Made by a program: the position numbers and the translations under genes
IMG/VR virus record: IMGVR_UViG_3300025108_000066
Location: 1 to 53,970 of that record
DNA length: 53,970 nucleotides
Source of the DNA: a virus
Lineage: Duplodnaviria; Caudoviricetes
Strand: one strand, 5' to 3'
Notes under the pieces: generated by a model
What the model was told of the DNA's origin: nothing
Seen by the model: the letters and a program-made list of their open reading frames with translations, nothing else
Databases searched by the model: none
In this document: piece after piece, positions 18,901 through 52,890 of the stretch
Numbering within the stretch: the first letter of the stretch is position 1
Layout of the letters: every line of letters starts with the position of its first letter

Positions 18901-19718
18901 TTATCTTTTTCGTATTTCTTAGCTGCTTTTATTACAGCTTGTTTATAACGCTCTTTACCTAAAACACCAGATACTGCATAGCCTACAGCACTAAGCGGAT
19001 TTGCACCTGTTACTGCTCCTACGCCTCCACCTATCAGGGCAGCTGCTATGGATTCTAATAAGTTTGGACCTTGTTGTGCTAGGTTAGCTACGAACCAATC
19101 TATAGCATCATGCGATTCGTTTGCATCTCCGTCTTGTATGTAACCAGATTTTATCTTAGTAAATTCTCTTTGGAACGGCTCGTTCTTTTCTATCTCTCTG
19201 ATAGCTTCATCAACAAGACCTTGCCCATATTTTTCAGCTCCAAAGAATTGAGAGGCTCTACCATATAATAGTTTTAGATTACTACCACCTATGTCAAAGT
19301 TTTCTGCAGCTAGTCTTCCTGCTTGTGGATTTTTAATTCCTTTAATGTATGAACCAAATTCTTTAGGACCAACTCGTGTCCAGTCTCTTGCTATATCTAA
19401 AGAAGGTTTTAGTGGTCTGTCTCTAAGTTTTGCTACAGATTGTAATGCTGTCTTAGCGTCATCATCGTCAAACATCAAGCCGTTGACAAACATTTTTTTA
19501 GTGCTTGGGCTATAGAAAACTTGGGGAGTTTCATCAGGTGGCTCATAGCCAATAGCATCAGTTTGTGCTTGTAGACCTGCAAGAGTATTTAAATTACTTT
19601 GTGCTAACTCACCAGTGCTGGGTACATTGTCTATACTTTGAGAAACACTTTCGATACTTGGTATACTATCAGCAACACTCTCAATACTAGGGGTGTTTAA
19701 ACCTACACGTACTACCAT
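9906..19718 (-). CDS. Giant polyvalent internal virion/ejection protein (3270 aa)
   Basis: Last gene of the ejection cluster; N-terminal hydrophobic Gly/Ala helices; HETLGH...EE metallopeptidase-like motif; PLxRFG-like GYVQFVRRGKY; EQLNRRATFLAAYRL. Confidence 0.8.
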   Translation of the reverse strand: MVVRVGLNTPSIESVADSIPSIESVSQSIDNVPSTGELAQSNLNTLAGLQAQTDAIGYEPPDETPQVFYSPSTKKMFVNGLMFDDDDAKTALQSVAKLRDRPLKPSLDIARDWTRVGPKEFGSYIKGIKNPQAGRLAAENFDIGGSNLKLLYGRASQFFGAEKYGQGLVDEAIREIEKNEPFQREFTKIKSGYIQDGDANESHDAIDWFVANLAQQGPNLLESIAAALIGGGVGAVTGANPLSAVGYAVSGVLGKERYKQAVIKAAKKYEKDKKSLTGGERKLIREASSLAGVASIKTPNIFIVDSKGVAKTLRGKPTKTQLDELVAKEGLLGGDGVRGRITQTARDQAIKGGTALGIGTSSYGIGLGDIYGEQREEGQDDRLSAALTAIPYAAMEMLPEFLLAARIFSVKPKKINKTLLEGTDQGGRTSRVLKGFGVGGTLEGTTEVAQESLILANTGQLKLDSPQVQNRLVNSFAAGFFVGGPIGAAANLLSKPSSDVLDRSNSRTEPNDPIDFTDEQPSREEKITGAKERRDALLRQQMKLPASAYSEDTKELEKETTKIVEEEGKKTLKEKGTRDFPIAVISDTKDLEKENTNLLNKLDKEVATTKTEDATKTVLQNPSLLTMSDAKFNSYSPAFPSGPNATEIGITSDDLYFEIKEIRQQNRKKEEETIANILKNNTKKEIKNVEQDLKKATTTTTTPKGKAKLTSADKLNTMLEEISTLDRTALSRYELKSSAKDKGKRRNIASYLAMDQGLTGRTNTEELSKLLAKKIQTKVKLEKDGKINTAQYRNVVADIEAIQRYLSLLVATTGTGVEKRGTEAGEEVAEDTTEINALRAQQQKILDRARAEQEAKKIKVEDYAGPFIVAKSLNSVFVNNVNETINSMAQGPGNIFSGITAQNMPSGVMQSAIEGAISLEYLKPSNKTSSASVVIRGDVQTQDKLSATLRMMAPIVLDAFKTGAVPNDSIVIEDDKGIPLAAAQYSIEDNAISVEMVGGVNSKAVEKIFKEIEKIRESQGKRYTVLESVAGAQKAFKRRGFKVAKKGDEFYSPLETNLFKDNQETETTPSEIVGGEIVGGKILYQLSESFNNRDVQAEIANAELRESFTPMPSGGVNFVQLEGTKEQHERFVQDAGGLIVSFGDDARKAMTQFQIEGDTQDANTKQETAEVVEGKQTRDSRTTTTRDKQETDADTTNIKGTKESVGEKKKGKAKLQVKGKEKSVRKADEKPVEKPADSTGQDKVSAVDKFLRQQKVDKLTRARAKPKDFKKKYKNTQEAWDDIKPLIPGSALIDTVPKPISDSISTAVKESTAIKTEEIRNMFLHMTEQDFKDVGVTPAVYTDMRIAQYEAAILDNDTKQDLLSELVDIGWLDKRSKDYGDITFNERAVTKARNFLNNYFGTTGFYTDNEAAVLDDVIYDRLTTELVEVGEATGLPGIQSGSELRIQEAIAWTKRRGRYQSIIDQRQKKKLPVLSGPAQPLETDQSALSKITIDTQPDYTAIQVHNLIKNQITEALGTTKITQPNRSVPKNKIENGFAKLSDEDKNYGINKEGDLLSDYFTDKGKLILYKTKSAEGMAIFKPITKKNLEQRKTRIETEEKDKAANLKKGEGLAFTNENVAELNEVLDSKLSEQERKEQADVIAFRKAQEAEVIAKDKLKKGEKKLIEYAIVEADNAEGYSVKTLAKAEADELTIEQTFMAGNMKEATAYKRKYLKDLEKLMEPVDPKGQEFLTKQDLSNKDIDNMLEGVDDNPDDTMFFRLDGSVIKNPVPILRVRAIVNKALGKLKLKPKATVVKDKAELESKFPELYERAVAGRQQGDFDTTNFAAFALGDEIVVFANNIKTEEQLKFIVAHETLGHFGLRAFVPDGKLNAVLEDLYNSEGHIKAVADIHIKNGMDKYIAIEEAMANAAATLDVSAIQRMWFAVKNFLNKIGIKFDDDLSRYILSQSRRNLRTGGGSYFNVKQLVSNMQDEYDRATQTRFYTEQVNTSLPASIFAMFGITANSTFGSFNNFKEVVKNKLGLDAPKAIGSALEYLQTLGNISNRSEGLRNIFNIFGMQAKKIKSLERTYETLTQFSTRPNIFNRKYEDDIVVTTTKDYNDLIDSKKSGTEPGTVGATEEELNQVSDLLSYAALFRAKQNGEDSTVAKAPSLRQEVGGGQAVNREAAKELGDMGLVSIEEFLEGIPYDISILQDDTGKLESRKFKPESISPRVYKMYSEIRAAINKSAVDVFESSLESTTFERQDAINNFLKAIGQDSNLTGARETFELIMEKYRQIRQVDATGDKQTNYTSEAKRKSALFIREVNRALFQPLKVEDWQDGNAGVGVKENYRFEDWNDEFKTPEPGAQPIFRFPNDNEYRRIIQGLSELNAIFKKGKEGEAEANTITNTIKSLFALEEATKQIEFNSKRTLMTGYVQFVRRGKYQVETIAFDKDRNRIKLDQQYKNAMPYFQAETEQDAREIQKQVNETFGKNPFVVRDKSGQEIEVTLEASRSVARTASLMSLDQNLSAFLRIADDLQINISVNDRDKIIKGLTDTGSAARQKLPRVGKAGWNKEVVRNQAMFLRAQSHLAGKTYFEHKLNTVLASEDQWLGDRNKLNKLKETLDRVEKFGNEQEKQVARANYDAYANMYRYSAGTTENTADEFTIYEMTGPLANIRTPKQVKPEGRGEDYKQQAKDILGYYASGENIVDSTEDILENSKTGQNLKVLAVSSQLGGSVATAIINSMSMVTHSIPYLATYNPKTGYGGGFGMSASAYHMQKAARQMSDGVRTRLGLTEAGAEQSLANLDWMNKVAGFDPETGEYTADPELAEQLQIQYNISPDEAQAVHRATSDGVLQAAQYNALVGTARGGLTNTTSGMLKKWMSLFSYTEQLNRRATFLAAYRLQKEKLIAANAKEFNVKNITPERIAELNKEIEGEAAKFAEVAVNTSQGEYSMFNRPKISRGPLLNSLMMYKQFVMISIELMKNLGRNERIYFLMLLFFLSGMKGLPFGEDIMDLIDTLVQMFGIKIGTVEKELTMFIDEVAPGTSPLVMRGVLDKVTGATMSTRLGFGDLIPLTGMAKAGSSFEQEVTNFLGPVYAAGEQAVAAVTLFGNYTAGKVGLKADTTRFVDVLRSQPYGGIRAIADAYTYYDDGVITNKQGKVLDKDVHFKEIFFRALNFYPASASYQNDIIRMTKQTGDYVKSIKIKFSEAYVKARISGDRAEMRRIEKDVRAHNRTHRNSEFYLSDWKASANRMYDAWKLPAAERFKKFATKKSRPDIDKLIQAYDM

Positions 19719-23939: not shown

Positions 23940-24298
23940 TATGTTGTCCCCTTTATTTGTAATATTAAAGCATTTAATGATGCTCTTGTCGATTTTAAAT
24001 CGTTAGCTAATGTTTGTACATCTAACAATAGTTTACCATAATCTTCTAAGCTGACAACATCTTGACCACTTATTGTAAACCCAACTCCTTTTGCTGACAG
24101 TTGTTGCATATTCTGAATAGGTAAACTTAAAACCGTTATTTGACCTTGTGTAACTGATTTACTAATTCTATCTGCTTCATCTCTGAGTCCTGTAAGCAAC
24201 TCAACATTTTCTTTTATATTCTCTATTAGAACAGTTAACTGCTGATTTAAATCAGTATTAGTAGGTACAGCTGGCACGGATACAAATCTATTACTCAT
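23939..24298 (-). CDS. Hypothetical tail-associated protein
   Basis: Coupled to the nozzle gene; coiled-coil ends. Confidence 0.6.
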   Translation of the reverse strand: MSNRFVSVPAVPTNTDLNQQLTVLIENIKENVELLTGLRDEADRISKSVTQGQITVLSLPIQNMQQLSAKGVGFTISGQDVVSLEDYGKLLLDVQTLANDLKSTRASLNALILQIKGTT

Positions 24299-26679
24299 AT
24301 ACTTTTCAACCCGATTGGTGTCTCACCTAAATGTATAGCTTTAACTCTAGCTGAACCTGATACAGATACTTCAAACGTGTCTGAACGATAACCAGAAGGT
24401 AATCTAAATATATCATCTGATGACACACTTCCTTGAAACATTAAATCTTTATCCACAAATAATTTAAACACAACAGGTAAGGCTCCTGATAAACCTTTTA
24501 AAGTTCGTGTCTGACTATCTCCGTTTACAGGAAAAGCGTTAAGAGTTCCTATATTCTCTACCCTGTTGCTATTACTATCTGTGTAATCTGTAGGTCCATT
24601 TAAACAACCTAGTTGTTGACTTGCTGCCCACACTGCTGCATTAAACGTAGGAACAGTATTATTAAACGCTGTTTCATTTACATTCTCGTCAGTTATAGAT
24701 GTATACTCTGCTATTACTCTAGCAGCACCTATGTTTAAATAGTCTGAAGTACGAATAGTTTTTGATTTCCACTCCATAGGAGCTAGCACTTGATTTTTAT
24801 TGTCCCACTCGAATATATCTCCAGTGGTATCTGAAGTGTAATACGTAATACCAGTTATAGAATCGCTATACGCTGCAGTAAACTTATAATTAATTTTTAC
24901 AAAAGTTCCACCTTGGTCATTATCTAACTGGAAAGTAAACGACCCTGTGCTATGTGACCCAAAATACTTATCATTAAAGTAGTGTCCTACTAAAGTAGTA
25001 GGGTCTAAATAATCTCCCCATGTATCCCAGTCATGTATTAAAATTGTATTAAGGCTTATTCCACTGCCTCCTCGCCATGCTGCTAATCCTCCATGTGTTG
25101 CCCACATTACACCTTGCTTTCCAATATTTACTATAGATTTTTTTGCTAGGCAAGGATACTCAGCGTCAATACGAGTTACTGACATAGACTCTGGACTGTT
25201 ACCTGATATGTTGTATGGATACGACTCTGTTAAAGCTAGTATATATCCACCATTTACTGCTATACCGACAATGTTAGAGTCTAAAGTTAGCCTGAATCTT
25301 TCAGGCCATGCATGTGGTTTATCAGGAAATGATATACATAGTTGGTTATCAAAAAATCCTACTAGCATATTTCTATGGTAGTTTGTTATGCCTTTCATAG
25401 TAGCTTTTGGTTTGTCATAATTCTCAGAAGGTACAATAGTGCTTAGTCCTGATACTGCAAAGTCATCAATAAAGTTATAATTACTGTCTCCCCAATATCT
25501 AGCAGTGTCTGACAATGACTCAGCAACGTCGTGACACAAAACACCGTTTGCATCTGCTGTAGTAGAGACATCACTACCACTATCAGCATAGGTAAATGAA
25601 TAGCTGTTAACAACACTAACAACAATACCATCTGTAACATTAAACCCACCACTATCTATGGTAGAACTTTTTATCTTAAACCTATTACCCACAATCATAT
25701 TATGTGGTTGAGATAGTATTACAGTAGCTACATTACTAGCTCTAGAAAAACTTACTGTAGAAGTAGGAAACCATAAAGTGTCAAGTAAAAAGAAGTCGGT
25801 AGCTGCTGCTGATGAAACACTACGATATAAATTTACACCCCGTACAAAATTATTTCCAGAAGGTTTTGCAGTAGGTAAATTTGTTATAGTAACTGTCTGC
25901 CCTTCTTTTATATAAACTTCATTTGAAACCTCAGAAGGTATTGACTCTTCACCCCATGGTGTAAGATGCGTGTATATATAAGTTCTAACTTGCGTACTAC
26001 CAGCCATATCAGCACGTCCAGTTGTGTTAGCTGTTTTTGATATTGTGTCGCCTGGATTAAAGTATTGAAAATCTGTTGCATTAACAACTGTTATTTGCAC
26101 ATTTGTAGAGTTAAATGATTTAGCTTCATCTGAAGTTCCAAAATCACGAACTGTTACTATATTGCCTGTGCGTAAATTGTGATTACCAGACCCATAAAAA
26201 GTAGCTGTGTTACCAGAATCTCGTTCGTAGTGCGTAGAACTTACTACAGAAAAAGATGTTGCTGTAGCTGTAACTGTGGTTGCTGGTAAATCTAATCCTA
26301 AATCATAGTAGCCATTTGATGCTGGATATGGTTCTGAACCTGTTGTGGCTAAATCATAATTAGAAACTTTTGGTACCCCATCTCCTGTAAAATAAAATCG
26401 TTGTTCATCATCAGATGAATCTGAAGCTGTAACTATATCAACATCTGAAGTCCAACTAAGCCATACTAATGCATCAGTACTCGGGTCTTTTAGGGCATAT
26501 ATAGTTTCTGCAGCTACTGCTCTTTCAGTATTATCTACCACAACAGGTTGTCTATAAGGTATAAGGTCTCCAGAATATAGTTTTACATTAACTGCATCTT
26601 GTGCAAAACCATCTGGCAACAAGTCTGAGGATGTCTTAGGGGATGCCCCTTTAAAATTTTGTATCTTAATTGATGCCAT
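24295..26679 (-). CDS. Tail tubular/nozzle protein (gp12/gp10 stabilisation-like)
   Basis: 794-aa beta-rich protein; TPWGEESIPS, PHAWP, EWKSK motifs; position in the tail cluster. Confidence 0.75.
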   Translation of the reverse strand: MASIKIQNFKGASPKTSSDLLPDGFAQDAVNVKLYSGDLIPYRQPVVVDNTERAVAAETIYALKDPSTDALVWLSWTSDVDIVTASDSSDDEQRFYFTGDGVPKVSNYDLATTGSEPYPASNGYYDLGLDLPATTVTATATSFSVVSSTHYERDSGNTATFYGSGNHNLRTGNIVTVRDFGTSDEAKSFNSTNVQITVVNATDFQYFNPGDTISKTANTTGRADMAGSTQVRTYIYTHLTPWGEESIPSEVSNEVYIKEGQTVTITNLPTAKPSGNNFVRGVNLYRSVSSAAATDFFLLDTLWFPTSTVSFSRASNVATVILSQPHNMIVGNRFKIKSSTIDSGGFNVTDGIVVSVVNSYSFTYADSGSDVSTTADANGVLCHDVAESLSDTARYWGDSNYNFIDDFAVSGLSTIVPSENYDKPKATMKGITNYHRNMLVGFFDNQLCISFPDKPHAWPERFRLTLDSNIVGIAVNGGYILALTESYPYNISGNSPESMSVTRIDAEYPCLAKKSIVNIGKQGVMWATHGGLAAWRGGSGISLNTILIHDWDTWGDYLDPTTLVGHYFNDKYFGSHSTGSFTFQLDNDQGGTFVKINYKFTAAYSDSITGITYYTSDTTGDIFEWDNKNQVLAPMEWKSKTIRTSDYLNIGAARVIAEYTSITDENVNETAFNNTVPTFNAAVWAASQQLGCLNGPTDYTDSNSNRVENIGTLNAFPVNGDSQTRTLKGLSGALPVVFKLFVDKDLMFQGSVSSDDIFRLPSGYRSDTFEVSVSGSARVKAIHLGETPIGLKSI

Positions 26680-26680
26680 T

Positions 26681-27118
26681 TTATTTTCTTGTTAGTGAGC
26701 CTCCAAAATATAATCCAATGATAGAAAATATAGTGTGTGATTGTAGGTTTGTTATGTAAACTGTATTGCCTGCTTCAAAGTATGATGTCTCATATACCTC
26801 ACCAAATATCCACCAACCACTATCTGCTTCAGTCATTATCTGATAAGCAACATTAACATCAGTAAAGATTGGTGCAACGATTGGCACTACGATAATACTA
26901 AATACGCACATTAATGCTATCCAACGTCTAGTGTGCTTGGTGTGTGGGTCAGATACTTCTCTTGCTTTATCTGTTTGTTGAGCTGCAAATTCTGCACGCT
27001 GCATTAACATTTTCTCACGCTCTGCTTGAGCTTGACCTTTCTGTGCTTGAATAGACATAATTCCGCCAAGCACCGTACTTGCGAGCATACTTAATAATTC
27101 CATTGGTATTCCAAACAT
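26681..27118 (-). CDS. Membrane protein, holin candidate
   Basis: N-terminal amphipathic segment, TRRWIAL TM helix, C-terminal IIGLYFG TM. Confidence 0.6.
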   Translation of the reverse strand: MFGIPMELLSMLASTVLGGIMSIQAQKGQAQAEREKMLMQRAEFAAQQTDKAREVSDPHTKHTRRWIALMCVFSIIVVPIVAPIFTDVNVAYQIMTEADSGWWIFGEVYETSYFEAGNTVYITNLQSHTIFSIIGLYFGGSLTRK

Positions 27119-27122
27119 ATCG

Positions 27123-27347
27123 TTACCTCAACGGGTTATCTGAACGAGCTTTTATCTCATCTACTTTTGCTTTGAGTACAGCTATTTCAGCTTTGTTAAT
27201 TGCTATGTCTTGTTCTAGTGGTTTAATGTTTACTGCCTTTTGAGCTTCAAGTACATCAACTCTTGTAATTAATTGCCCTTGATAAACAAAAAGTCCTGCT
27301 ATTGTTATGACTAGTCCTATGCCAGTCGCTATGGTTTTAATATCCAC
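27123..27347 (-). CDS. Small N-terminal TM + coiled-coil protein
   Basis: IATGIGLVITIAGLFVY TM, then heptad repeats ending in DNPL. Confidence 0.65.
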   Translation of the reverse strand: MDIKTIATGIGLVITIAGLFVYQGQLITRVDVLEAQKAVNIKPLEQDIAINKAEIAVLKAKVDEIKARSDNPLR

Positions 27348-28962
27348 GAATCCTCCTTAAGTGTTCTTCTGCTCTAATTCTTTGGTCTACTTTATCCTGA
27401 ACATTCTTTTGATACTGTGCAACAGGGTCACCATAAACATTCTGATTTTCAGCATATAAATTTCTAACATCAATATATTGTCTTGCTTCAAAGTAATCAC
27501 CTCCATCTATATTCGGTTGGTTAAGTATATCTTTGTTTACTTTACCATAATTGTCCATAGAAAAAGAACTTTGCATAGCTTTTGCTACTATAACAGACGT
27601 AGCTACAAGTTGCTTATCTACTTCCTTTATAACTTCTGCTACCTTCTGTTGTATATTTTCTACTGTAATAGTTTGATTATCTCTTGGAGAAACTCCTTCA
27701 TCCCTGCTTTCTTCCACCTCTTGATTTCCGCTTTCGATATCTTCTTCTGCTCCAGCAGTAGTTTCATCTCCATCATTTCCATTTCCACTTGTGCTTGTTT
27801 CTCCTTCTCCGTTAACCTCATTTTCCTCACTAGCTCCTCTAGGTTCATTATTTACTTCTTCACTAGCGACAAGAGTTTCTTCTTCAGTAGGCTCAGGACT
27901 TGTTTCACTTTCGTTAGTAATTTGTTCAGTAGGCTCTGGTTCCATTTCCCCGCCTGCTGTTTGAGGAACTGCTCCCTCATTTTCTGTGCTTGTAAATTCA
28001 TTTTCTTCGAGAAACTCTTCTCCTGAGATTTCTCCTTGACTTTGGATTTCTTCAGCTTCAATGTTTTGGTTTTGACTGACTTCAATGATTTCTTCAAAAC
28101 TTTCGATTTCTGTTGGGATTTCTTGGAAGTTCTCTTGACTACCATAACTTACCTCCGTTATTTCTTGAGAGAATATATTTACTACTCCTGTATTTATTTC
28201 CTCCATTGCTACTTCTTCTATGTATATTTCACTAAACATTTCAGTTAATATCTCTGGTTCTTCAAAAGGTATAAACTCCTCTACTATAAATTCTTCATAT
28301 ATAAATAATTCTTGTGGCTCTACTGTAGTAGTTAAAACTTCTTCTATTTCTTCAAATGCTGTATTCAATATTGTTGTTTGTGCAGCTGTTAAGACAGTAT
28401 CATCATAGGTCATAGTAACTGATACGTTATCTACATTAGGACCACCAAGATTAGCAGGAGCAGCAGAATCGGCACCACTAATATTAATATTTCCAATGTT
28501 ACTACCAGTCCCTGTATACGAGACACTATCTGTAAAATTTTCGCCATTAATTCCCGTAACATTTGTTCTCTCCTGTGTAGTTACTGACAACACGTTATTA
28601 TCTGAATCTTTAATTTGTAATCTAATACTGAAGCTATCAGCTGGTCCTGAACCTCCCCAACATCCTGCTACCCCACACTCACCGTTCTGCACTTGAACAC
28701 TAGAGTTTAAAGTAATTCCATTATTAAGCATTTGTTGTGTAATTACGTCATCAATGAGGGAAAATGACTGCTCAATACTGCCACTATCTCCAAACTCTAG
28801 GTCATGTCCTCCTGGACAACAATCACTTATTCGTTGTGCATCACCTGATAATGTCCAACCTGTAGTACCATTATCGAATGTACCATTAGTAATTAAATTA
28901 TCTGTTGTTAAATCTTGTGCTAGTAAGGTAATCGGAAACAACAAAGGTATTATGTATTTCAT
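27337..28962 (-). CDS. Exported protein: signal peptide, CBM-like beta domain, very acidic linker
   Basis: MKYIIPLLFPITLLA-Q signal; NLITNGTFDNG..GW motif; Cys pairs; long Glu-rich region. Confidence 0.7.
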   Translation of the reverse strand: MKYIIPLLFPITLLAQDLTTDNLITNGTFDNGTTGWTLSGDAQRISDCCPGGHDLEFGDSGSIEQSFSLIDDVITQQMLNNGITLNSSVQVQNGECGVAGCWGGSGPADSFSIRLQIKDSDNNVLSVTTQERTNVTGINGENFTDSVSYTGTGSNIGNINISGADSAAPANLGGPNVDNVSVTMTYDDTVLTAAQTTILNTAFEEIEEVLTTTVEPQELFIYEEFIVEEFIPFEEPEILTEMFSEIYIEEVAMEEINTGVVNIFSQEITEVSYGSQENFQEIPTEIESFEEIIEVSQNQNIEAEEIQSQGEISGEEFLEENEFTSTENEGAVPQTAGGEMEPEPTEQITNESETSPEPTEEETLVASEEVNNEPRGASEENEVNGEGETSTSGNGNDGDETTAGAEEDIESGNQEVEESRDEGVSPRDNQTITVENIQQKVAEVIKEVDKQLVATSVIVAKAMQSSFSMDNYGKVNKDILNQPNIDGGDYFEARQYIDVRNLYAENQNVYGDPVAQYQKNVQDKVDQRIRAEEHLRRIRGY

Positions 28963-29135
28963 AACTTCAATACTCCTACAGTTGTCTTGCGTTTGCTAAT
29001 ATATCTGTCTTTATACCATTGCTCAAATTCAGGTTCAAGATTCATATACTCTACTATTTGTTCAGGCTCTACTTGACCATTTCTAATACAAATAGCAACT
29101 TCTATAAATTTATTTTCTAATTCTTTAGATATCAT
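28959..29135 (-). CDS. Hypothetical protein, 58 aa (not in ORF track)
   Basis: MISKELENKF...VGVLKL*; ATGA overlaps on both sides. Confidence 0.7.
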   Translation of the reverse strand: MISKELENKFIEVAICIRNGQVEPEQIVEYMNLEPEFEQWYKDRYISKRKTTVGVLKL

Positions 29136-29257
29136 CGTCTTTCAGGTGCTGGTATTTCTTGTTCATTACTTCCGTAAATTGTCATTTCTCCTAGAGTAAC
29201 ACTATGAGTTGAACAGCTTACTAACAGTAAACTACTTAGTAGTATTAGTATCTTCAT
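29132..29257 (-). CDS. Small lipoprotein, 41 aa (not in ORF track)
   Basis: MKILILLSSLLLVS-C lipobox; starts inside the 3' end of the 210-aa gene. Confidence 0.75.
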   Translation of the reverse strand: MKILILLSSLLLVSCSTHSVTLGEMTIYGSNEQEIPAPERR

Positions 29258-29864
29258 CAATCATTCCTGATGGTATAGGTTTGCCATTCCATTCGTTTGT
29301 TTCAGGCTGATAGAATCCTCCTATCTCTATCCATCTAGCTTTAGCTTTGGCACCAATTAAGCCTTCTATTGGGCATGGTGTACCTGCATCCATCATGGCT
29401 TGCCACACGTCAACGTCTTGACACATAAGTGATATCGCTGCGACTTTCATACCAAGTTTAGCTAATACGGCAGATGCTTTACGTCTTTCACATTCTTTAT
29501 CTATCATATAGCTTCCAAATGAGCCTGAGAAGCCGATTACGGTCACTCCTGCTGCAAGTGGTATAACACAGCTGTCTTGTCCATAAACGCTCATTCCAGG
29601 GGCTGAGGAGCTGTTTACAGCAGTTTCCTGATTTGTTGAATTATTAGTTGTATTAGATGTAGTAGAGTTTGAGCTACTACCTGATTGATATGTAGTGCTA
29701 GATTCATAGCCACCCGTAATAGCGGTGTTTGAGCCAGCATTATTGGATTGGGTATTTGTAGTGCTTCCTGAGCTAGTAACGTCAGACAACGCAGAATCTA
29801 TACTTAGTAATAATATAAATATTACAATTAAAAGTATTGCACCTTTTATTTTCGACACTTCCAT
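29232..29864 (-). CDS. Exported Ser/Thr/Asn-rich, Cys-containing protein
   Basis: N-terminal hydrophobic signal; DSC, ECER, GMKVAAISLMCQ, GTPCP. Confidence 0.7.
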   Translation of the reverse strand: MEVSKIKGAILLIVIFILLLSIDSALSDVTSSGSTTNTQSNNAGSNTAITGGYESSTTYQSGSSSNSTTSNTTNNSTNQETAVNSSSAPGMSVYGQDSCVIPLAAGVTVIGFSGSFGSYMIDKECERRKASAVLAKLGMKVAAISLMCQDVDVWQAMMDAGTPCPIEGLIGAKAKARWIEIGGFYQPETNEWNGKPIPSGMIDEDTNTTK

Positions 29865-30094
29865 TTTCTTAACGCCAACGCTTTTCTTGTTGGCCTCCCT
29901 TTGCTGTCCTTCATCGGTCCTTTAACACCAGACATTCTTGCACAAAAACTTTTTCTTCTTGCTGCTGCTTTAGAACCTTTAGGTGCTTTACCAGTTACAG
30001 GTGGTTTAAGATTAGAACCATCTTTTCGTTTAAAATGAGCTCTACCTGCTGCGTTAAGACCCCCAGTTTTACTTTGGTATTTCTTAAGAACCAT
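29846..30094 (-). CDS. Small basic protein (DUF6321-like)
   Basis: GGLNAAGR, RRKSFCARM, LRKWKC. Confidence 0.7.
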   Translation of the reverse strand: MVLKKYQSKTGGLNAAGRAHFKRKDGSNLKPPVTGKAPKGSKAAARRKSFCARMSGVKGPMKDSKGRPTRKALALRKWKCRK

Positions 30095-30264
30095 TAGCCT
30101 CTAGCCACCTTCTTTGCCTTTGCTGACAAATCTTTAAAGTGAACAACAGGTTTGGAACTTGCAGTATGCGTTTTGCCTGTGTGTATTTTACCACCTGGCA
30201 TTTTATGAACAGCACCTTTAAATTCCTTACCTGTTTTAAAATAATGTTTGGTTCCTGCAGCCAT
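30094..30264 (-). CDS. Small basic His/Lys-rich protein, 56 aa (not in ORF track)
   Basis: MAAGTKHYFK...HKMPGGKIHTGKTHTASSK...; TAATG coupling on both sides. Confidence 0.75.
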   Translation of the reverse strand: MAAGTKHYFKTGKEFKGAVHKMPGGKIHTGKTHTASSKPVVHFKDLSAKAKKVARG

Positions 30265-30416
30265 TATTTTTTCATGCCTTTGCAGCCGCCTTTAACCATG
30301 CCGCCTTTACCATACATCATCTTATTATTTTTCTTAACCTTTCCGCCCATAGCATATTTCATGATAAGTTTGCTTCCTGGCTTAGTTTTCATTCCAACTT
30401 TGTTTCCACCTGGCAT
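30264..30416 (-). CDS. Small Lys/Met/Gly-rich protein, 50 aa (not in ORF track)
   Basis: AGGAG SD; contains YAMGGKV and YGKGGMV. Confidence 0.7.
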   Translation of the reverse strand: MPGGNKVGMKTKPGSKLIMKYAMGGKVKKNNKMMYGKGGMVKGGCKGMKK

Positions 30417-30426
30417 AACATTTCTC

Positions 30427-30642
30427 CTATAATAATTTTAATATGTCTGTAAATTTATCTGTAGTTAAAACAAAAATAACAATAATTGTCCAGATTATAT
30501 ATTTAAATTTAAAGACTTCTCGTTTTACATCGCTCAAATCTGCTTCAATATGAGTTAGATGATTATGCTTAATATCGTGCACATCTTTTTTAATAAGCTC
30601 AACCTCAAGCGTTAATTCATTATTGTCTTTCATACCTTTCAT
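30427..30642 (-). CDS. Coiled coil + C-terminal TM protein (XhlA/holin-like)
   Basis: IKHNHLTHIE coiled coil, then YIIWTIIVIFVL TM. Confidence 0.6.
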   Translation of the reverse strand: MKGMKDNNELTLEVELIKKDVHDIKHNHLTHIEADLSDVKREVFKFKYIIWTIIVIFVLTTDKFTDILKLL

Positions 30643-30800: not shown

Positions 30801-31721
30801 TTATCCCTCTAATGTTGTTACTCTAGATTGTAAGTCTTCTATTACTGCTTGTTGTTCTTGTATTGTTTTGACCAATAAAGGTACAAGTTTGCTTTGGTCG
30901 ATTCCTTGCATTTGTTCAGCATCTTTAGTTCCTATTATAGCTTCAGGTACTATGCTTGATACTTCGTGTGCAATAAATCCATCTAATTCTGTGTTTGTAT
31001 CATCTGCTATCCAATTAAATCTGCATGGTTTGAGTTGCTTTAATCTTGCTGTTGCATCAAATGTATAATCTACATTTTCTTTTAGTCTATAATCAGATGA
31101 AGTGCTATATGTGGTTGATGAGCCACTTACTGTAACTGCTCCTGCACTTGTCGAATCACTTGAATAAAATCTTATAGCATCATTATTTGCATAACATCTT
31201 ATTTCCATACCATTTTGATTTGTAGCATCTGATTTTATACATACAAAAGAATTATTTCTTTCAACAGTTGTGCCAATATAAACCTGTCCAACACCATTAA
31301 CTTTCATTCTATCAGAGCCACCTGTTTTGAAATCTATTTCATCATCTGTGTCAGCAGTAATACTAGTATCACCATCAGCATCTAATACTAACTCAGCACC
31401 ATTGAGGTCTCGAGCCTCTGCTTGTATATCTTCAAAAAGTTTAGCTACAGGTCTAAGCTCAAACCTATCACCTGTACTAAATGCTCTAGCTGAAGTATTA
31501 TCTTGTGCTCTGACTACAGTTAAAGAGTCAGTAGACCTAGCTGTAACCTTAACAATCTCAAGATTGTTTGAAGTATCTATAAGGGTTCCATAAAAATAGT
31601 TACCAGTAGTTAGAGTAGGAAATCTAGCTCCTTCACCAGAAGCTAATGCAACAGTTGTAGCAGAGTCATTTATACCTGATGCTAATGTACTAAATCCGTT
31701 ATTTGTAATTTTAACTGTCAT
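30801..31721 (-). CDS. Tail fibre/spike with C-terminal peptidase S74 intramolecular chaperone
   Basis: TSSDYRLKEN, GFIAHEV...PEA, DQSKLVPLLVKTIQE. Confidence 0.85.
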   Translation of the reverse strand: MTVKITNNGFSTLASGINDSATTVALASGEGARFPTLTTGNYFYGTLIDTSNNLEIVKVTARSTDSLTVVRAQDNTSARAFSTGDRFELRPVAKLFEDIQAEARDLNGAELVLDADGDTSITADTDDEIDFKTGGSDRMKVNGVGQVYIGTTVERNNSFVCIKSDATNQNGMEIRCYANNDAIRFYSSDSTSAGAVTVSGSSTTYSTSSDYRLKENVDYTFDATARLKQLKPCRFNWIADDTNTELDGFIAHEVSSIVPEAIIGTKDAEQMQGIDQSKLVPLLVKTIQEQQAVIEDLQSRVTTLEG

Positions 31722-31732
31722 AATCTATTAAT

Positions 31733-33139
31733 TTATCCTTCTAGTGCTGTAATTCTTGCTTCTAATTCTTGTATTGTTTTAACTAATAGTGGAACAAGTT
31801 TTGCTTGGTCTATTTGTTGCATAACAGGTATATCACTCATACTTGCAGACCATGTAGTATCATTTGCATAATTTCCATCTGCTTTATCTTTTGTCCATTC
31901 TGCTTCTGTTACACCCTCTGAATTGAAAGTTCCATCGGCATTTTTAACAACATTGGTTGCTGTTCTTGTAGCATCTTTAGTTCCTATTATAGCTTCAGGT
32001 ACTATGCTTGATACTTCATGTGCAATAAATCCATCTACTGTTTTATCTGCATCTACAATAAAATTAAATCTTGCAGGTTTTAATTGTTTTAATCTTGTTG
32101 TTGCATCAAATGTATAATCTACATTTTCTTTTAATCTATAATCTGATGATGTTGCATAAGTTGTGCTTGATGCTGATGTCGATATACTACCACCACTAGC
32201 CCCATCTTTATGAAAGACAACGACAATACCATCACTTGATAATCTATTTATAACTATAGGTTCCATACCATCTGCAATAAATTCAGCAGCACCTGCTTTT
32301 GTGCCTAAATCGTTAAAACAAATACCTGCAGTTCCAAAGTTATTAGTATTTTTATTAAATAATATTTCACCTGAACTATTAATTCTCATTCTTTCTGTAT
32401 TGCTTGATGTTGTAGCACTACTGCCTTTAGTGAATATAAGAGCATTATCTGAGTTTATGTAAGTATGCTCAAATGTGCTTGTATCGTTGGTTACTCTAGG
32501 AACACCTCTTATCCATAAACCTGCTTGTGTACCTGATGAGCCAGAGCCATGCATTTTTACATTCACTCCACTAGCAGTTGTTATATCGGTTGTAGTGATA
32601 GACATTCTATCTGTGCCACCTGTTTTAAAATCTATTTGGTCATCGGTATCTGCCGTAATTGAAGTGTCTGCATCAGCATCGAGTATCAATTCTGCTCCGT
32701 TTAAATCTAAAGCTCCCCCAAAAGAGGGTGCTGTAATATTTCCTGAAGATTGAATAGTACCTGTAATATTAATATTACCTGTACCTGTAATATCATTTGA
32801 GTTTAATCCTAGGTCTGACCCTAGTGCAGATATTTGAGTTGAAACATCTAATAAAGATTGTGCAGTAATTCTAAGTTCTATTCTATCACCAACAGCAAAT
32901 GCTCTAGCTGAAGTGCTTTCTTGTGCACGAGTAACAGTTAATACATCAGATGACCGTGCAGTACATTTAGCAATCTCTAAATTATTTGATGCGTCTATAA
33001 GAGTTACAAAAAAATACTCACTGCCTGTTAAAGATGGGAATAAAGCTCCGTCCCCAGATGCTACAGTTATACTAGTAACAGAGTCATTTATACCTGAAGC
33101 TAGTGTAGATACTGCGTTATTCGCAAATTTTACTGGCAT
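31733..33139 (-). CDS. Tail fibre/spike with C-terminal peptidase S74 chaperone (paralog of 30801-31721)
   Basis: Shared N-terminal anchor (NN..STLASGINDS, NNLEI.K.TAR) and S74 motifs. Confidence 0.85.
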   Translation of the reverse strand: MPVKFANNAVSTLASGINDSVTSITVASGDGALFPSLTGSEYFFVTLIDASNNLEIAKCTARSSDVLTVTRAQESTSARAFAVGDRIELRITAQSLLDVSTQISALGSDLGLNSNDITGTGNINITGTIQSSGNITAPSFGGALDLNGAELILDADADTSITADTDDQIDFKTGGTDRMSITTTDITTASGVNVKMHGSGSSGTQAGLWIRGVPRVTNDTSTFEHTYINSDNALIFTKGSSATTSSNTERMRINSSGEILFNKNTNNFGTAGICFNDLGTKAGAAEFIADGMEPIVINRLSSDGIVVVFHKDGASGGSISTSASSTTYATSSDYRLKENVDYTFDATTRLKQLKPARFNFIVDADKTVDGFIAHEVSSIVPEAIIGTKDATRTATNVVKNADGTFNSEGVTEAEWTKDKADGNYANDTTWSASMSDIPVMQQIDQAKLVPLLVKTIQELEARITALEG

Positions 33140-43245: not shown

Positions 43246-43487
43246 TACGTTTTAGCGTATCCAGGTTTGCCTTTAGATGAATTGTCTTTAGATTGTTTGC
43301 GTTTAACCGCCGCACGTTTCTTACCAGCAGACATACTTCTTGCTTTAGCAGATGGTACACACTTAGGATACTTACTCCTTTTCTCTCCTTTACTCCTACC
43401 GCATGGTGGGAATGAACCGTCAGAACGGGGGTTAGCTATATCTACCCACTTCTCACCTACCCACTTTTTTAGCCCTTTTTGTGCCAC
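43245..43487 (-). CDS. Small basic protein (DUF5872-like)
   Basis: LKKWV.EKWVDI, CGR, YPKCVP; GTG start with GGAGG SD. Confidence 0.7.
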   Translation of the reverse strand: MAQKGLKKWVGEKWVDIANPRSDGSFPPCGRSKGEKRSKYPKCVPSAKARSMSAGKKRAAVKRKQSKDNSSKGKPGYAKT

Positions 43488-43614
43488 TTTTTTTACCTCC
43501 AGGTTTTATCCTGCCTGAGCATACGCCTGATGCGTACATGTTTGCATAAGCTGATGGATATTTTTTAAACTTTCTTTTAGCTGCTGCTTTACCTTTTGCA
43601 CATAGTTTTGCCAT
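43453..43614 (-). CDS. Small basic protein, 53 aa (not in ORF track)
   Basis: MAKLCAKGKAAAKRKFKKYPSAYAN...; GGAGG SD; TAATG coupling. Confidence 0.75.
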   Translation of the reverse strand: MAKLCAKGKAAAKRKFKKYPSAYANMYASGVCSGRIKPGGKKSGTKRAKKVGR

Positions 43615-48116: not shown

Positions 48117-48132
48117 CAACGAGGTAAACACA

Positions 48133-52646: not shown

Positions 52647-52890
52647 TAAAGACGGTTGGGTAGATGATTACACAATAAGTATTGGATGGTGTACTGATGA
52701 TGTTTTGGAACTTGTACGCATGAGAAATATGAACAGGTTGTCAGATGATATACCAAAAGAAAAACTAACTTTAGATGAATGTAAAGAGGTGTTAGCTAGA
52801 TGTTTAAGAGGACATGACGCTAATCATGGTATTACATGGGACACATTAGATTTTCACATTGACGACATTATAAAGGAGAAAGACAAATGA
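52636..52890 (+). CDS. Hypothetical protein
   Basis: GAGGAGG SD; W..DDV, LT..EC.EVL, HDA..GITW; start at 52636 or 52639. Confidence 0.7.
   Translation: MMSNKDGWVDDYTISIGWCTDDVLELVRMRNMNRLSDDIPKEKLTLDECKEVLARCLRGHDANHGITWDTLDFHIDDIIKEKDK

What the first reader, a model, noticed from the sequence alone, without database searches (positions are those of the whole stretch)
26681..29864. Translationally coupled envelope-targeted operon with no recognisable endolysin
Seen: six tightly packed genes encoding an exported Cys-rich 210-aa protein, a 41-aa lipoprotein, a 58-aa soluble protein, an exported 541-aa protein (CBM-like domain plus a long Glu-rich stalk), a TM/coiled-coil 74-aa protein and a holin-like 145-aa protein. 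A second holin-like gene lies at 30427-30642. I recognised no lysozyme, amidase or endopeptidase in this complete genome. Inference: either a non-canonical lysis/exit apparatus or a periplasmic/surface complex, for example superinfection exclusion or receptor masking.
Basis: partly seen in the sequence, partly recalled or inferred. Interest (0 to 1): 0.7.

Follow-up and report, generated by a model that had tools for sequence, protein, structure and literature searches.

The report
Mobile envelope-targeted lysis cassette, marine phage
A tightly packed set of membrane, lipoprotein and exported protein genes in a marine phage is most likely its cell-bursting (lysis) cassette, built from uncharacterised parts and shared among very abundant ocean phages that show no recognisable cell-wall-cutting enzyme.

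Summary
All six ORFs, and the 71-aa membrane ORF, lie on the minus strand, overlapping or 1-4 nt apart. The cassette stays beside the 145-aa gene in 77 of 80 IMG/VR loci, in two genome types and in permuted order.

It is an insertion between tail fibres and the tail nozzle gene of a Bcep22-like structural operon. It holds 5 of the genome's 9 hydrophobic-segment proteins.

No peptidoglycan hydrolase was found. PHROGs covered 59 of 67 gene models and Pfam 29. Seven Pfam families were searched in six frames. Six of these were also absent from 14 relatives, with working positive controls.

Best reading (0.55): a late lysis cassette. It comprises a holin-like 145-aa protein, a spanin-like pair (74-aa anchor and 41-aa lipoprotein), and two exported proteins: a 210-aa protein whose domain matched no solved structure, and a sugar-binding/acidic 541-aa protein.

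The 210/541/74 triad recurs next to true endolysins in other marine phages. It is therefore probably an accessory envelope-disruption module, not simply the missing endolysin. Function is inferred, not shown.

The parts
30427..30642 (-). g71: 71-aa protein with a charged N-terminal half and one C-terminal hydrophobic segment. Second holin/antiholin-like candidate.
   Evidence: ORF. Hydrophobic 19-mer at residues 43-61. Kept in 7 of the 80 IMG/VR loci; all seven also keep g52, g306 or g794, as in the window. Its relative HTVC033P gp51 lies directly upstream of the Amidase_2 gene. PHROG holin hit at E 0.076 only, not significant.
29846..30094 (-). g82: very basic 82-aa DUF6321 protein that travels with the cassette
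   Evidence: Pfam DUF6321, E 3.7e-28. K+R 26, D+E 2. Present in 55 of 80 IMG/VR loci, next to g210.
29232..29864 (-). g210: exported protein with an N-terminal signal or anchor, an S/T/N-rich linker and a ~100-aa 4-Cys C-terminal domain that matched no solved structure
29132..29260 (-). g42: 41/42-aa lipoprotein; the mature peptide is about 26 aa. o-spanin-like anchor candidate.
   Evidence: Lipobox in 29 of 29 unique homologue variants. Only credible lipoprotein ORF on the coding strand. Seen in 45 of 80 IMG/VR loci. PHROG Rz-like spanin hits at E 0.038-0.058 only.
28959..29135 (-). g58: 58-aa soluble acidic ORF; an accessory, not a conserved cassette member
   Evidence: ORF. No hydrophobic segment. 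Found in only 2 of 80 IMG/VR loci. No family.
27337..28962 (-). g541: exported protein made of a sugar-binding-like beta-sandwich, an acidic disordered stalk and a conserved helical C-terminal domain
   Evidence: AF2: beta-sandwich in about residues 17-186 (pLDDT about 80-90 in most 10-residue blocks, two dips to 57-63), residues 214-432 disordered, helices 434-539 of low confidence. Foldseek: Fbs1 sugar-binding domain (E 2.6e-9), CBM16/22/35/61 and tailspike domains. 108 D+E of 541. Alignment of 45 homologues shows two N-domain types and a conserved C-terminal end. No Pfam or PHROG family.
27123..27347 (-). g74: N-terminal transmembrane segment plus a helical/coiled-coil tail ending in an invariant N-P-L motif. 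i-spanin-like candidate.
   Evidence: Hydrophobic segment at residues 3-21. Alignment of 18 homologues has invariant C-terminal N71, P72, L73. Distant relatives are HTVC023P gp48 and HTVC033P gp44 (BLAST E about 1e-7 and 4e-7). Not DUF2730: 0 of 18 members and no hit in the genome.
26681..27118 (-). g145: holin-like membrane protein with a weakly hydrophobic N-terminal segment, a charged helix, a strong TMD at 67-85 and a conserved Gly-rich C-terminal hydrophobic segment
   Evidence: 24 phage records and 299 database relatives. Directly downstream of the Hydrolase_2 gene in CRP-603 and the SLT gene in CRP-5. In the holin slot before the terminase in HTVC031P and S28-C10. ESM Atlas neighbour cluster carries GTA_holin_3TM in 14% of members, a lead only. 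PF11351 does not match. 0 of 14 family members match any M15 Pfam.
24295..26679 (-). Flank: g794, a tail (nozzle-type) virion protein that marks the downstream edge of the insertion
   Evidence: phrog_511, E 1.2e-101. PDB 8jov_A 'virion-associated phage protein', E 1.9e-56. Relative of Bcep22 gp67, which directly follows the tail fibre genes there. 'Nozzle' is my recalled reading of that structure.
30801..33139 (-). Flank: two tail fibre genes (468 aa and 306 aa) with a Peptidase_S74 chaperone domain; the upstream edge

Best explanation
The cluster is the phage's late-expressed lysis (host-envelope disruption) cassette. It is a mobile module inserted between the tail fibre and tail nozzle genes.

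Proposed roles, all inferred:
- g145, possibly with g71, is the inner-membrane holin or timing component.
- g74 is anchored in the inner membrane by its N-terminal segment, with a helical tail ending in the invariant N-P-L motif.
- g42 is a tiny outer-membrane lipoprotein.
- g74 and g42 act like a spanin pair, together with two Sec-exported periplasmic proteins.
- g210 carries a disulphide-type domain that matched no solved structure.
- g541 has a sugar-binding beta-sandwich, a roughly 220-residue acidic stalk and a helical C-terminal domain.

Together these would bridge or destabilise the wall and outer membrane at the end of infection.

The 210/541/74 triad is a conserved unit of lysis cassettes in many marine phages. 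In this lineage no canonical endolysin accompanies it. The wall-cutting activity is therefore either unrecognised (inside the cassette or elsewhere) or dispensable.

Shown: gene anatomy, export and membrane signals, conservation, linkage, genomic position, absence of known hydrolase families.
Inferred: every functional role and all topology.
For: 1. Position.
- In T7-like relatives the cassette fills the slot between tail genes and the small/large terminase, where T7 keeps its holin. The T7 layout is recalled; the relatives are.
- In Bcep22 the tail fibres are followed directly by the g794 homologue, so the cassette is an insertion.

2. Linkage to wall hydrolases. g145 relatives lie:
- immediately after a Hydrolase_2 gene in CRP-603
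- immediately after an SLT gene in CRP-5
- two genes after a Phage_lysozyme domain in HTVC103P

3. The triad g210-like / g541-like / g74-like recurs in order.
- HTVC023P: followed at once by a true Peptidase_M15_3 of 55 bits.
- HTVC033P: four genes downstream of an Amidase_2 gene.
- Myophage Mosig.
- At least 10 of 38 genome-contig loci.

4. Five of the 9 gene models (of 67) with a hydrophobic 19-mer lie in this cluster. The others are 2 likely ejection proteins and 2 marginal cases. No other lysis-type locus exists in the genome.

5. The genes overlap or are 1-4 nt apart, with no terminator on the coding strand. They therefore belong to the late structural transcription unit.

6. Conservation. 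The cassette lies beside g145 in 77 of 80 IMG/VR loci, in two architectures. The lipobox is kept in 29 of 29 variants. N-P-L is invariant in 18 of 18.

7. No spanin, holin or endolysin family was found elsewhere in the genome.
Against: - No member has a significant match to any holin, spanin or endolysin family. PHROG spanin and holin hits are at E 0.035-0.1. GTA_holin_3TM and DUF2730 do not match.
- Gene order is unlike known two-component spanins. The lipoprotein gene lies upstream of the anchor gene, separated by g58 and g541. g42 was detected in only 45 of 80 loci and no lipoprotein ORF was found in the fetched HTVC033P, HTVC023P or Mosig loci.
- The 74-aa anchor is short for an i-spanin. 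Its topology is ambiguous by charge (my reading).
- The N-terminal domain of g541 is swapped between near-identical cassettes. That pattern is more typical of proteins recognising variable host surface structures.
- The cassette sits in the middle of structural genes, an unusual place for lysis genes.
- The triad co-occurs with canonical endolysins elsewhere, so the model leaves the missing endolysin unexplained.
- Nothing was tested experimentally.
Confidence: 0.55

Rival explanations
1. Superinfection exclusion or receptor masking. The exported sugar-binding g541, the periplasmic g210 and the lipoprotein g42 modify or occupy envelope structures. This would stop other phages, or progeny, from adsorbing or injecting. 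Their proximity to lysis genes would be incidental, as with moron genes beside lysis cassettes.
For: - The g541 N-terminal beta-sandwich resembles lectin, CBM and tailspike domains.
- That domain exists in at least two swapped types within cassettes whose neighbours are 98-100% identical. In L004, g74 is 100%, g145 98%, g541 43% and g42 44% identical.
- The cassette is mobile between unrelated phage backbones.
- There is a weak PHROG 'superinfection exclusion' hit for g210 at E 0.031.
- Small lipoproteins that block receptors are known in other phages (recalled: T5 Llp, Cor).
Against: - The PHROG hit is not significant.
- The genes lie inside the late structural operon with no promoter space, whereas exclusion is usually needed early.
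- The triad is repeatedly adjacent to endolysin or holin-like genes in five different phage backbones.
- It includes an inner-membrane coiled-coil protein with variable length and an invariant C-terminal motif. That is a spanin-like design with no obvious role in masking.
Confidence: 0.2
2. The cassette contains the phage's endolysin in a non-canonical form. The g210 Cys-rich domain, or less likely g541, would be a new Sec-exported peptidoglycan-degrading enzyme.
For: - The window has no hit to seven hydrolase Pfam families.
- 14 cassette-bearing relatives (10 at >=90% completeness) have no hit over cut-off to six of those families.
- In CRP-603 and CRP-5 the gene immediately upstream of the g145 relative is a canonical hydrolase. 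In the window that position holds the cassette.
- The g210 domain has an invariant Asp and nearly invariant Asp/Gln positions beside conserved cysteines, so an active site is possible.
- g541 carries a glycan-binding-like module.
Against: - g210-like genes co-occur with a true M15 peptidase (HTVC023P) and an Amidase_2 (HTVC033P) in the same cassettes. An accessory role is therefore more parsimonious.
- A constitutively Sec-exported wall hydrolase would need an unknown restraint to avoid premature lysis.
Confidence: 0.15
3. A conventional muralytic enzyme exists elsewhere in the genome but is too divergent to recognise. It could be a domain of the 3270-aa giant protein or one of the family-less proteins (577, 425, 393, 354, 284, 247, 199 aa). 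The cassette would then supply only holin- and spanin-type functions.
For: - Only the C-terminal ~530 residues of the 3270-aa protein match any family.
- In HTVC103P the only lysozyme domain found sits at the C-terminus of a 1673-aa open frame (the annotated 1671-aa gp52) just upstream of the g145 relative.
- Many window proteins have no family at all.
- The six-frame family tool relies on a loose first look that returned no candidates.
Against: - PHROGs on 59 of 67 gene models found nothing; the 8 unscanned models are all <=73 aa. Pfam on 29 proteins also found nothing.
- PDB sequence searches of the 3270, 577 and 794-aa proteins gave no hydrolase.
- BLAST with the hydrolases and giant proteins of relatives found nothing in the window.
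- The same blank holds in 14 relatives across two backbones.
Confidence: 0.3
4. The six proteins are ordinary virion (tail or decoration) components, as their location among structural genes might suggest.
For: - The cluster lies between tail fibre genes and the nozzle-type gene g794.
- The g541 beta-sandwich also matches domains of phage tailspikes and baseplate proteins.
Against: - Conserved signal peptides, a lipobox in 29 of 29 variants and membrane anchors direct the products out of the cytoplasm, where tailed-phage virions assemble.
- The cassette moves as a unit between unrelated structural modules and is absent at the same junction in Bcep22.
Confidence: 0.03

Closest known systems
Two-component spanins (lambda Rz/Rz1 type)
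   Same: - g74 is an inner-membrane protein with an N-terminal anchor and a helical periplasm-length tail. Tail length varies between relatives, 74 to about 190 aa.
- g42 is a very small lipoprotein.
- Both lie in a lysis-type cassette of a phage of a Gram-negative host.
   Different: - There is no significant similarity to any spanin PHROG (E 0.035-0.1).
- The lipoprotein gene is upstream and separated by two genes. It is not embedded in, overlapping, or just after the anchor gene.
- The lipoprotein is not detected in many cassettes (45 of 80 loci).
- Two large exported proteins, g210 and g541, are constant partners. Known spanins have no equivalent.
- The invariant C-terminal N-P-L motif is not a described spanin feature, as far as I recall.
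Holins; nearest lead GTA_holin_3TM (PF11351)
   Same: - g145 is a small membrane protein with a conserved, very hydrophobic central segment, charged flanks and two further hydrophobic segments.
- It sits next to wall hydrolases in relatives and in the pre-terminase holin slot of T7-like phages.
- An ESM Atlas neighbour cluster carries PF11351 in 14% of its members.
   Different: - PF11351 matches neither the window nor 8 relatives' records.
- Profile comparison with the analogous proteins of Mosig and HTVC033P is not significant.
- Membrane permeabilisation is untested.
Mu gp25 releasin (DUF2730, PF10805)
   Same: - Short protein with an N-terminal transmembrane segment preceded by about 4 residues, followed by a helical soluble domain.
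- It is encoded in a lysis region (PMC9239132, passages read).
- The g74 homologue of phage S28-C10 is annotated DUF2730 by its depositors.
   Different: - 0 of 18 g74-family members match PF10805 at E<=1, and there is no hit in the genome.
- Releasins lie within 5 genes downstream of an endolysin. No endolysin exists here.
- Mu gp25 is N-out/C-in with a cytoplasmic domain. The g74 topology is unknown.
Peptidase M15 endolysins (the label that GenBank records of HTVC010P-type pelagiphages give to g145 relatives)
   Same: Only the label and the presumed role in lysis. HTVC203P gp31 and HTVC024P carry the product name 'peptidase M15' on the g145 homologue. In the Skadi records the g145 match lies under two features, 'peptidase M15' and 'myosin_tail_1 domain-containing protein', and I did not resolve which is the g145 relative. 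The Skadi paper assigns lysis to it (PMC10504331, passage read).
   Different: - 0 of 14 family members match any M15 Pfam even at E<=10.
- PF08291 and PF13539 do not hit the window, and PF08291 does not hit HTVC203P.
- No His or Asp is invariant in the family alignment; the invariant residues are Gly, Ser, Thr, Arg and hydrophobics.
- A genuine M15_3 enzyme (HTVC023P gp49) is a different protein.
Carbohydrate-binding beta-sandwich modules (Fbs1 sugar-binding domain; CBM16/22/35/61)
   Same: The N-terminal ~170 residues of g541 fold as a beta-sandwich. It has Foldseek probability 1.0 matches, E 2.6e-9 to 1e-5, to these sugar-binding domains.
   Different: - No Pfam CBM family matches by sequence.
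- The ligand is unknown.
- The domain is fused to a ~220-residue acidic disordered region and a conserved helical C-terminal domain.

Membership tests
Canonical endolysin (Phage_lysozyme, Amidase_2, SLT, Peptidase_M15_3, Peptidase_M15_4, Hydrolase_2, Peptidase_M23) | A significant match to one of these catalytic-domain families anywhere in the genome | tested here: not met
   - Six-frame searches of the whole genome gave 0 matches at E<=10 for each of the 7 families.
- PHROGs on 59 of 67 gene models and Pfam on 29 proteins gave no hydrolase.
- Positive controls worked in phage records for 5 of the 7 families.
- PF13539 and PF01551 had no positive control among phage records; they were hit only in the tool's control genomes.
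Peptidase M15 (label carried by g145 relatives in GenBank) | Pfam M15 match and a conserved His/Asp/His zinc-ligand set | tested here: not met
   0 of 14 family members match an M15 Pfam at E<=10. No invariant His or Asp in alignment A1. The zinc-ligand set is recalled.
Holin (functional class) | Small protein with at least one transmembrane segment, encoded beside lysis genes | tested here: met
   g145 has a hydrophobic 19-mer at residues 67-85 (KD 2.77). It is adjacent to Hydrolase_2 or SLT genes in relatives and sits in the pre-terminase slot in T7-like phages.
Holin (functional class) | Forms lethal membrane lesions that release or activate the endolysin | not testable with these tools
   Needs expression and membrane-permeabilisation assays.
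GTA_holin_3TM (PF11351) | Profile match to PF11351 | tested here: not met
   No match in the window or in 8 relatives' records. The only link is an ESM Atlas neighbour cluster with 14% PF11351.
Two-component spanin | i-spanin: N-terminal transmembrane anchor plus a periplasmic coiled-coil domain | tested here: inconclusive
   The g74 anchor is present. The helical tail is inferred from sequence and from weak bZIP and DivIC-type hits. Periplasmic orientation is not established.
Two-component spanin | o-spanin: small outer-membrane lipoprotein with a lipobox | tested here: met
   g42 has a lipobox in 29 of 29 variants and is the sole lipoprotein ORF on the coding strand. Outer-membrane sorting is not testable here.
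Two-component spanin | o-spanin gene embedded in, overlapping, or immediately downstream of the i-spanin gene | tested here: not met
   g42 lies upstream of g74, separated by g58 and g541. No embedded ORF of at least 30 aa lies on the minus strand within g74.
Two-component spanin | Sequence similarity to a known spanin family | tested here: not met
   PHROG Rz-like hits are at E 0.038-0.099 for g42, g74 and g145.
Mu releasin / DUF2730 | Profile match to PF10805 | tested here: not met
   0 of 18 g74-family members at E<=1. No hit in the genome.
Mu releasin / DUF2730 | [quoted passage not shown] | tested here: not met
   No endolysin was detected in the window. The criterion is taken from passages read.
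Carbohydrate-binding beta-sandwich | Beta-sandwich fold similar to solved sugar-binding modules | tested here: met
   Foldseek E 2.6e-9 to Fbs1; CBM16/22/35/61 at about 1e-6 to 1e-5. The model was pLDDT about 80-90 in most 10-residue blocks of that domain, with two dips to 57-63.
Carbohydrate-binding beta-sandwich | Demonstrated glycan binding or a conserved binding site | not tested
   No ligand analysis was done.

The most novel reading that the evidence does not exclude
The g210 / g541 / g74 triad, with the g42 lipoprotein in this lineage, is a previously undescribed multi-component, periplasm-spanning envelope-disruption machine. It would be used by many of the ocean's most abundant phages in place of classical spanins. 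In the window's lineage, which shows no detectable endolysin in 11 near-complete genomes, it would also carry out or bypass peptidoglycan degradation. That would make it a new route of Gram-negative phage lysis.
Probability: 0.3. Interest if true: 0.85.

Novelty: new variant of a known kind. Interest (0 to 1): 0.65.

Why it matters
How phages of SAR11-like, genome-streamlined marine bacteria burst their hosts is essentially unstudied.
- Papers on pelagiphages assign lysis to a 'peptidase M15'. In the GenBank records of HTVC203P and HTVC024P that label sits on the g145 relative, which shows no M15 features in my tests.
- Other papers speculate about curli pores (PMC9004378).

This cassette's components are very widespread: 3041 relatives of the 210-aa protein and 2508 of the 541-aa protein at E<=1e-3, and 912 representative clusters for the g210 domain.

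If the cassette is the lysis machinery, it defines several new things:
- a new holin-like family
- a new exported domain with no structural match in the PDB
- a spanin-like system with extra components
- a group of abundant phages without a known endolysin

That bears on carbon release by viral lysis in the ocean and on the general rules of Gram-negative phage lysis. It also gives concrete, cloneable targets for testing.

Tried and rejected
g145 as a peptidase M15. Rejected.

g145 as GTA_holin_3TM. No HMM match. Kept only as a lead.

g74 as DUF2730/releasin. No HMM match.

Homology of g145 to the analogous small membrane proteins of Mosig and HTVC033P. hhalign was not significant, at E 0.15 and 0.26. 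Only the architecture is alike.

Fold assignment of the g210 domain.
- PDB by sequence: nothing.
- Foldseek against the PDB: nothing at E<=0.001.
- BFVD: only uncharacterised viral proteins.
- Pfam over 150 family members: only low-complexity or stray hits.

PDB sequence search of g541: nothing.

Looking for the relatives' hydrolases or giant proteins in the window by BLAST.
- Nothing was found.
- The S28-C10 Amidase_2-like ORF as a query in the window plus 14 relatives gave no match. That call had no positive control of its own.
- tblastn of five reference hydrolases against CRP-7, CRP-4, CRP-207 and HTVC031P loci gave only self hits. Adjacency of g145 relatives to a recognisable hydrolase is therefore shown for 3 phage types, not all.

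Co-variation of g42 type with g541 N-domain type across loci. My crude motif classes showed no clean association; many loci fell in 'other'. This gives no evidence of co-evolution.

Complex prediction of g541 residues 425-541 with g74. The verdict was 'no answer' (score 0.01, mark 0.32, controls not run). It is neither evidence for nor against binding.

Literature.
- 'DUF2730': 2 papers.
- 'pelagiphage' + 'spanin': 12 papers hold both terms and 10 were listed. I judged them by title and abstract; only PMC9004378 was opened. None treats a pelagiphage spanin.
- 'DUF6321': 0 papers.
- HMO-2011-type paper PMC9038755: only a generic mention of lysis genes.
- 'phage' / 'no endolysin' / 'spanin' / 'SAR11'.
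- I found no description of this triad in those searches.
- The PF08291 assignment in Chen et al. 2019 (PMC6811365, passages read) rests on a figshare supplement I could not see. Reference [27] of the Skadi paper was not read.

Not attempted: RNA-run look-ups (look-up of sequencing runs, read laying).

Full report
**What the window is**

The window is a near-complete podophage genome.
- The first and last 99 nt are 97 of 99 identical.
- The record is an IMG/VR virus with CheckV completeness 99%.
- Genes run on the plus strand to about 9.8 kb, on the minus strand from 9.9 to 44.4 kb (packaging, head, tail, giant protein), then on the plus strand again.

The structural module is Bcep22/GP4-like.
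- The 794-aa protein (24295-26679) matches phrog_511 at E 1.2e-101.
- It matches Bcep22 gp67 and its relatives in 365 phage records.
- It matches PDB 8jov_A 'virion-associated phage protein' at E 1.9e-56.
- It is followed by small proteins and a 3270-aa giant ORF, as in Bcep22.

A roughly 160-185 nt piece of the tail fibre gene is 84-91% identical to Pelagibacter phages. Most protein relatives of the cluster come from pelagiphages and roseophages. The host is therefore probably SAR11-like. That is an inference.

**Check of the observation**

- All six ORFs and the 71-aa ORF are present on the minus strand at the stated coordinates.
- They overlap by 4-29 nt or are separated by 1-4 nt.
- There is no coding-strand terminator and no excess of promoter-like sites.
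- The stated features hold: hydrophobic N-termini, 4 Cys in g210, 108 acidic residues in g541, and single hydrophobic segments in g74 and g71.
- The small lipoprotein is real. All 29 unique variants found in related loci keep a lipobox, and it is the only credible lipoprotein ORF on the coding strand.
- g58 is poorly conserved, appearing in 2 of 80 loci, so it is an accessory.

**Linkage and mobility**

A scan of IMG/VR with g145 found 197 encoding stretches, of which 80 loci were kept.
- In 77 of the 80, cassette genes lie beside g145. The other 3 loci end right after g145.
- The full g210+g541+g74 set is seen in 52 of 80; the rest are cut by contig ends.

Two architectures occur.
- 13 loci resemble the window: tail fibre, g52, g71, small basic genes, g82, g210, g42, g541, g74, g145, g794 and onward.
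- 64 loci read g145, g82, g210, g42, g541, g74. Where I read the context (L020; phage S28-C10) a terminase gene follows. L058 differs.

g145 is thus permuted from the end to the start of the unit.

In Bcep22 the tail fibre genes abut the g794 homologue with nothing between them. The cassette is therefore an insertion.

Identities are mosaic. In L004, g74 is 100%, g145 98%, g541 43% and g42 44% identical.

**Is there an endolysin?**

In the window:
- PHROGs was run on 59 of the 67 gene models. The 8 not scanned are all 73 aa or shorter. Pfam was run on 29 proteins. Neither gave a lysozyme, amidase, transglycosylase or peptidase of the wall-hydrolase kind.
- Six-frame searches of the genome found nothing at E<=10 for Phage_lysozyme, Amidase_2, SLT, Peptidase_M15_4, Peptidase_M15_3, Hydrolase_2 and Peptidase_M23.

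The search method does find such genes in relatives:
- Amidase_2 in HTVC033P and S28-C10
- Phage_lysozyme at the end of a 1673-aa open frame (the annotated 1671-aa gp52) in HTVC103P
- SLT in CRP-5
- Hydrolase_2 in CRP-603
- Peptidase_M15_3 in HTVC023P

In relatives:
- 14 IMG/VR genomes carry the cassette, 10 of them at 90% completeness or more, across both architectures.
- Six of these families gave no match over cut-off. There was one sub-threshold Phage_lysozyme match of 11.8 bits.

A divergent enzyme cannot be excluded. Most of the giant protein and a dozen mid-sized proteins have no family.

**The 145-aa protein**

- It has 299 relatives in the protein collection and relatives in 24 phage records.
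- GenBank calls the HTVC203P and HTVC024P homologues 'peptidase M15'. In the Skadi records that label is one of two features under the match. The Skadi paper gives that enzyme as the lysis gene.
- I could not support this label. 0 of 14 family members match any M15 Pfam at E<=10. PF08291 misses HTVC203P. The alignment has no invariant His or Asp.
- The invariant positions form a Ser/Thr/Gly-rich N-terminal segment, a Thr-Arg-Arg motif before the strong hydrophobic segment, and a Gly-rich C-terminal hydrophobic segment.
- This is the pattern of a small multi-segment membrane protein.
- It lies immediately after the Hydrolase_2 gene of CRP-603, immediately after the SLT gene of CRP-5, and two genes after the lysozyme domain in HTVC103P.
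- In T7-like phages it lies after the tail genes and before the terminase.
- The cobavirus paper places lysis genes next to internal virion protein genes in that group and notes small TM proteins there as candidate holins (PMC6775973, passages read).
- An ESM Atlas neighbour cluster carries GTA_holin_3TM in 14% of members, but the HMM itself does not match.
- I read g145 as a holin-like protein of an undescribed family.

**The 210-aa protein**

- The C-terminal ~100 residues form a widespread domain: 912 representative clusters at E<=1e-3. It has four conserved cysteines and an invariant Asp.
- The domain is usually preceded by a signal sequence and a low-complexity linker.
- It has no Pfam family.
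- A confident model (pLDDT 80.3) shows a hairpin plus four helices.
- The model matches no solved structure and only unnamed or uncharacterised viral proteins.

**The 541-aa protein**

- The model gives an N-terminal beta-sandwich, a disordered acidic stretch (residues 214-432) and C-terminal helices of low confidence.
- The sandwich matches the Fbs1 sugar-binding domain, several CBM families and tailspike domains, confirming 'CBM-like'.
- Among 45 homologues the N-domain comes in at least two unrelated-looking types. The C-terminal ~110 residues, up to the last residue, are strongly conserved.

**The 74-aa protein**

- It has an N-terminal anchor and a helical tail. The three C-terminal residues N-P-L are invariant in 18 of 18 homologues.
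- It is not DUF2730 by HMM, despite that label on the S28-C10 homologue.

**A conserved triad**

The order g210-like, large exported acidic g541-like, g74-like recurs widely.
- HTVC023P: gp45, gp46, gp48.
- HTVC033P: gp46, gp45, gp44.
- Mosig: 00202, 00201, 00200.
- BLAST supports g210 and g541 in all three, and g74 in the first two. Mosig 00200 shares only the anchor-plus-N-P-L design.
- CRP-810: a g210-like gene is followed two genes later by a 140-aa protein of the same design. That protein is labelled 'lysozyme'.
- MAG/SAG contigs: at least 10 of 38 loci that hold a g210-like gene show a 560-850-aa ORF directly followed by an anchor-plus-N-P-L or g74-like ORF.

In HTVC023P the next gene is a true Peptidase_M15_3. 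In HTVC033P an Amidase_2 gene, preceded by a g71-like gene, lies four genes upstream of the triad.

The triad is therefore a regular companion of endolysins and holin-like genes, not a simple substitute for them.

**Mechanism I consider most likely (0.55)**

This is a late lysis cassette.
- g145, perhaps modulated by g71, opens the inner membrane.
- g74 (inner-membrane anchor) and g42 (outer-membrane lipoprotein), with periplasmic g210 and g541, form a spanin-like system. The g541 sandwich may hold wall or outer-membrane glycans, and its helical end may dock on a partner. The system would complete envelope disruption.
- Every role is inferred from anatomy and context.

Weak points:
- There is no family-level match to holins or spanins.
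- The gene order is not spanin-like.
- The lipoprotein was detected in only 45 of 80 IMG/VR loci and no lipoprotein ORF was found in the fetched HTVC033P, HTVC023P and Mosig loci.
- The swapped g541 N-domains would suit a surface-recognition or exclusion role.
- The missing endolysin remains unexplained.

Rivals:
- exclusion or masking (0.2)
- a new endolysin inside the cassette (0.15)
- a cryptic conventional endolysin elsewhere (0.3; compatible with the main reading)
- virion proteins (0.03)

**Novelty**

In the searches I ran I found no description of this triad, of spanins in pelagiphages, or of DUF6321. Published annotations call the parts 'hypothetical', 'carbohydrate binding domain containing', 'DUF2730', 'OmpA family', 'peptidase M15' or 'lysozyme'.

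I rate it a new variant of a known kind: a lysis cassette with non-canonical, uncharacterised components. There is a 0.3 chance that it is a new envelope-disruption system.

Noticed in passing
window 26681-27118; L084:4001-4432 (HTVC203P gp31): Relatives of the 145-aa membrane protein carry the GenBank product name 'peptidase M15' in HTVC203P and HTVC024P; in the Skadi records that label is one of two features under the match. The Skadi paper names it as the lysis enzyme. No family member matches an M15 Pfam, and no His or Asp is invariant. The label looks like a misannotation.
   Followed up: yes
L091:4668-5090 and L091:3064-3324 (Roseobacter phage CRP-810): The gene annotated 'lysozyme' (gp51, 140 aa) has an N-terminal hydrophobic segment, a long helical region and the C-terminal N-P-L motif. 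This is the g74-type design, not a lysozyme-like sequence. An unannotated 86-aa lipoprotein ORF between gp54 and gp53 carries a motif resembling the g210 Cys-rich domain.
   Followed up: partly
window 29846-30416 and 43245-43614: There are five small, extremely basic proteins: 50 aa; 56 aa; 82 aa (DUF6321, E 3.7e-28); 53 aa; and 80 aa (weak DUF5872). In relatives they move around with the cassette: between g145 and g210 in L058, and between g145 and g794 in L004. Their function is unknown.
   Followed up: partly
window 9906-19718: This 3270-aa ORF sits in the position of Bcep22 gp75, annotated 'DarB-like antirestriction'. Only its last ~530 residues match any family (phrog_11358, E 4.2e-42). 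There is a weak LPD29 hit, no PDB sequence match and no wall-hydrolase domain.
   Followed up: partly
window 31972-32155 (tail fibre gene 31733-33139): This stretch of about 160-185 nt is 84-91% identical at DNA level to six Pelagibacter podophages that otherwise share no DNA similarity with the 24-kb query (window 20000-44000). It suggests recent exchange of a fibre segment and hints at a SAR11 host.
   Followed up: no
window 27337-28962; L004, L022, L069, L075, L083: The N-terminal beta-sandwich domain of the 541-aa protein comes in at least two sequence types among cassettes whose flanking genes are nearly identical. This indicates domain swapping. My attempt to link the type to the lipoprotein variant showed no clean association.
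   Followed up: partly
window 1-99 and 53872-53970: The terminal 99-nt direct repeat has 2 mismatches. IMG/VR classes the record as 'linear, no end repeats', probably because of the mismatches.
   Followed up: yes
window 50137-50820, 52887-53369, 47127-50114: The early/middle region encodes an Nmad5 (nucleotide-modification-associated) domain protein (E 6.2e-7) and an HslV-family peptidase-like protein (phrog_1040). It also encodes an ATPase (phrog_1297), then a family-less 284-aa ORF, then a phrog_1314 protein. This hints at DNA modification or host takeover functions.
   Followed up: no
L094-L131 (genome contigs): All 38 'cellular' contigs carrying the g210 domain belong to uncultured-organism assemblies (MAGs, bins or SAGs) labelled with very different taxa, including archaea, Flavobacteriales, Marinimicrobia and cyanobacteria. 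Their gene content looks phage-like. They are probably viral contigs binned into MAGs. One is a Pelagibacteraceae single-cell assembly, L107.
   Followed up: no
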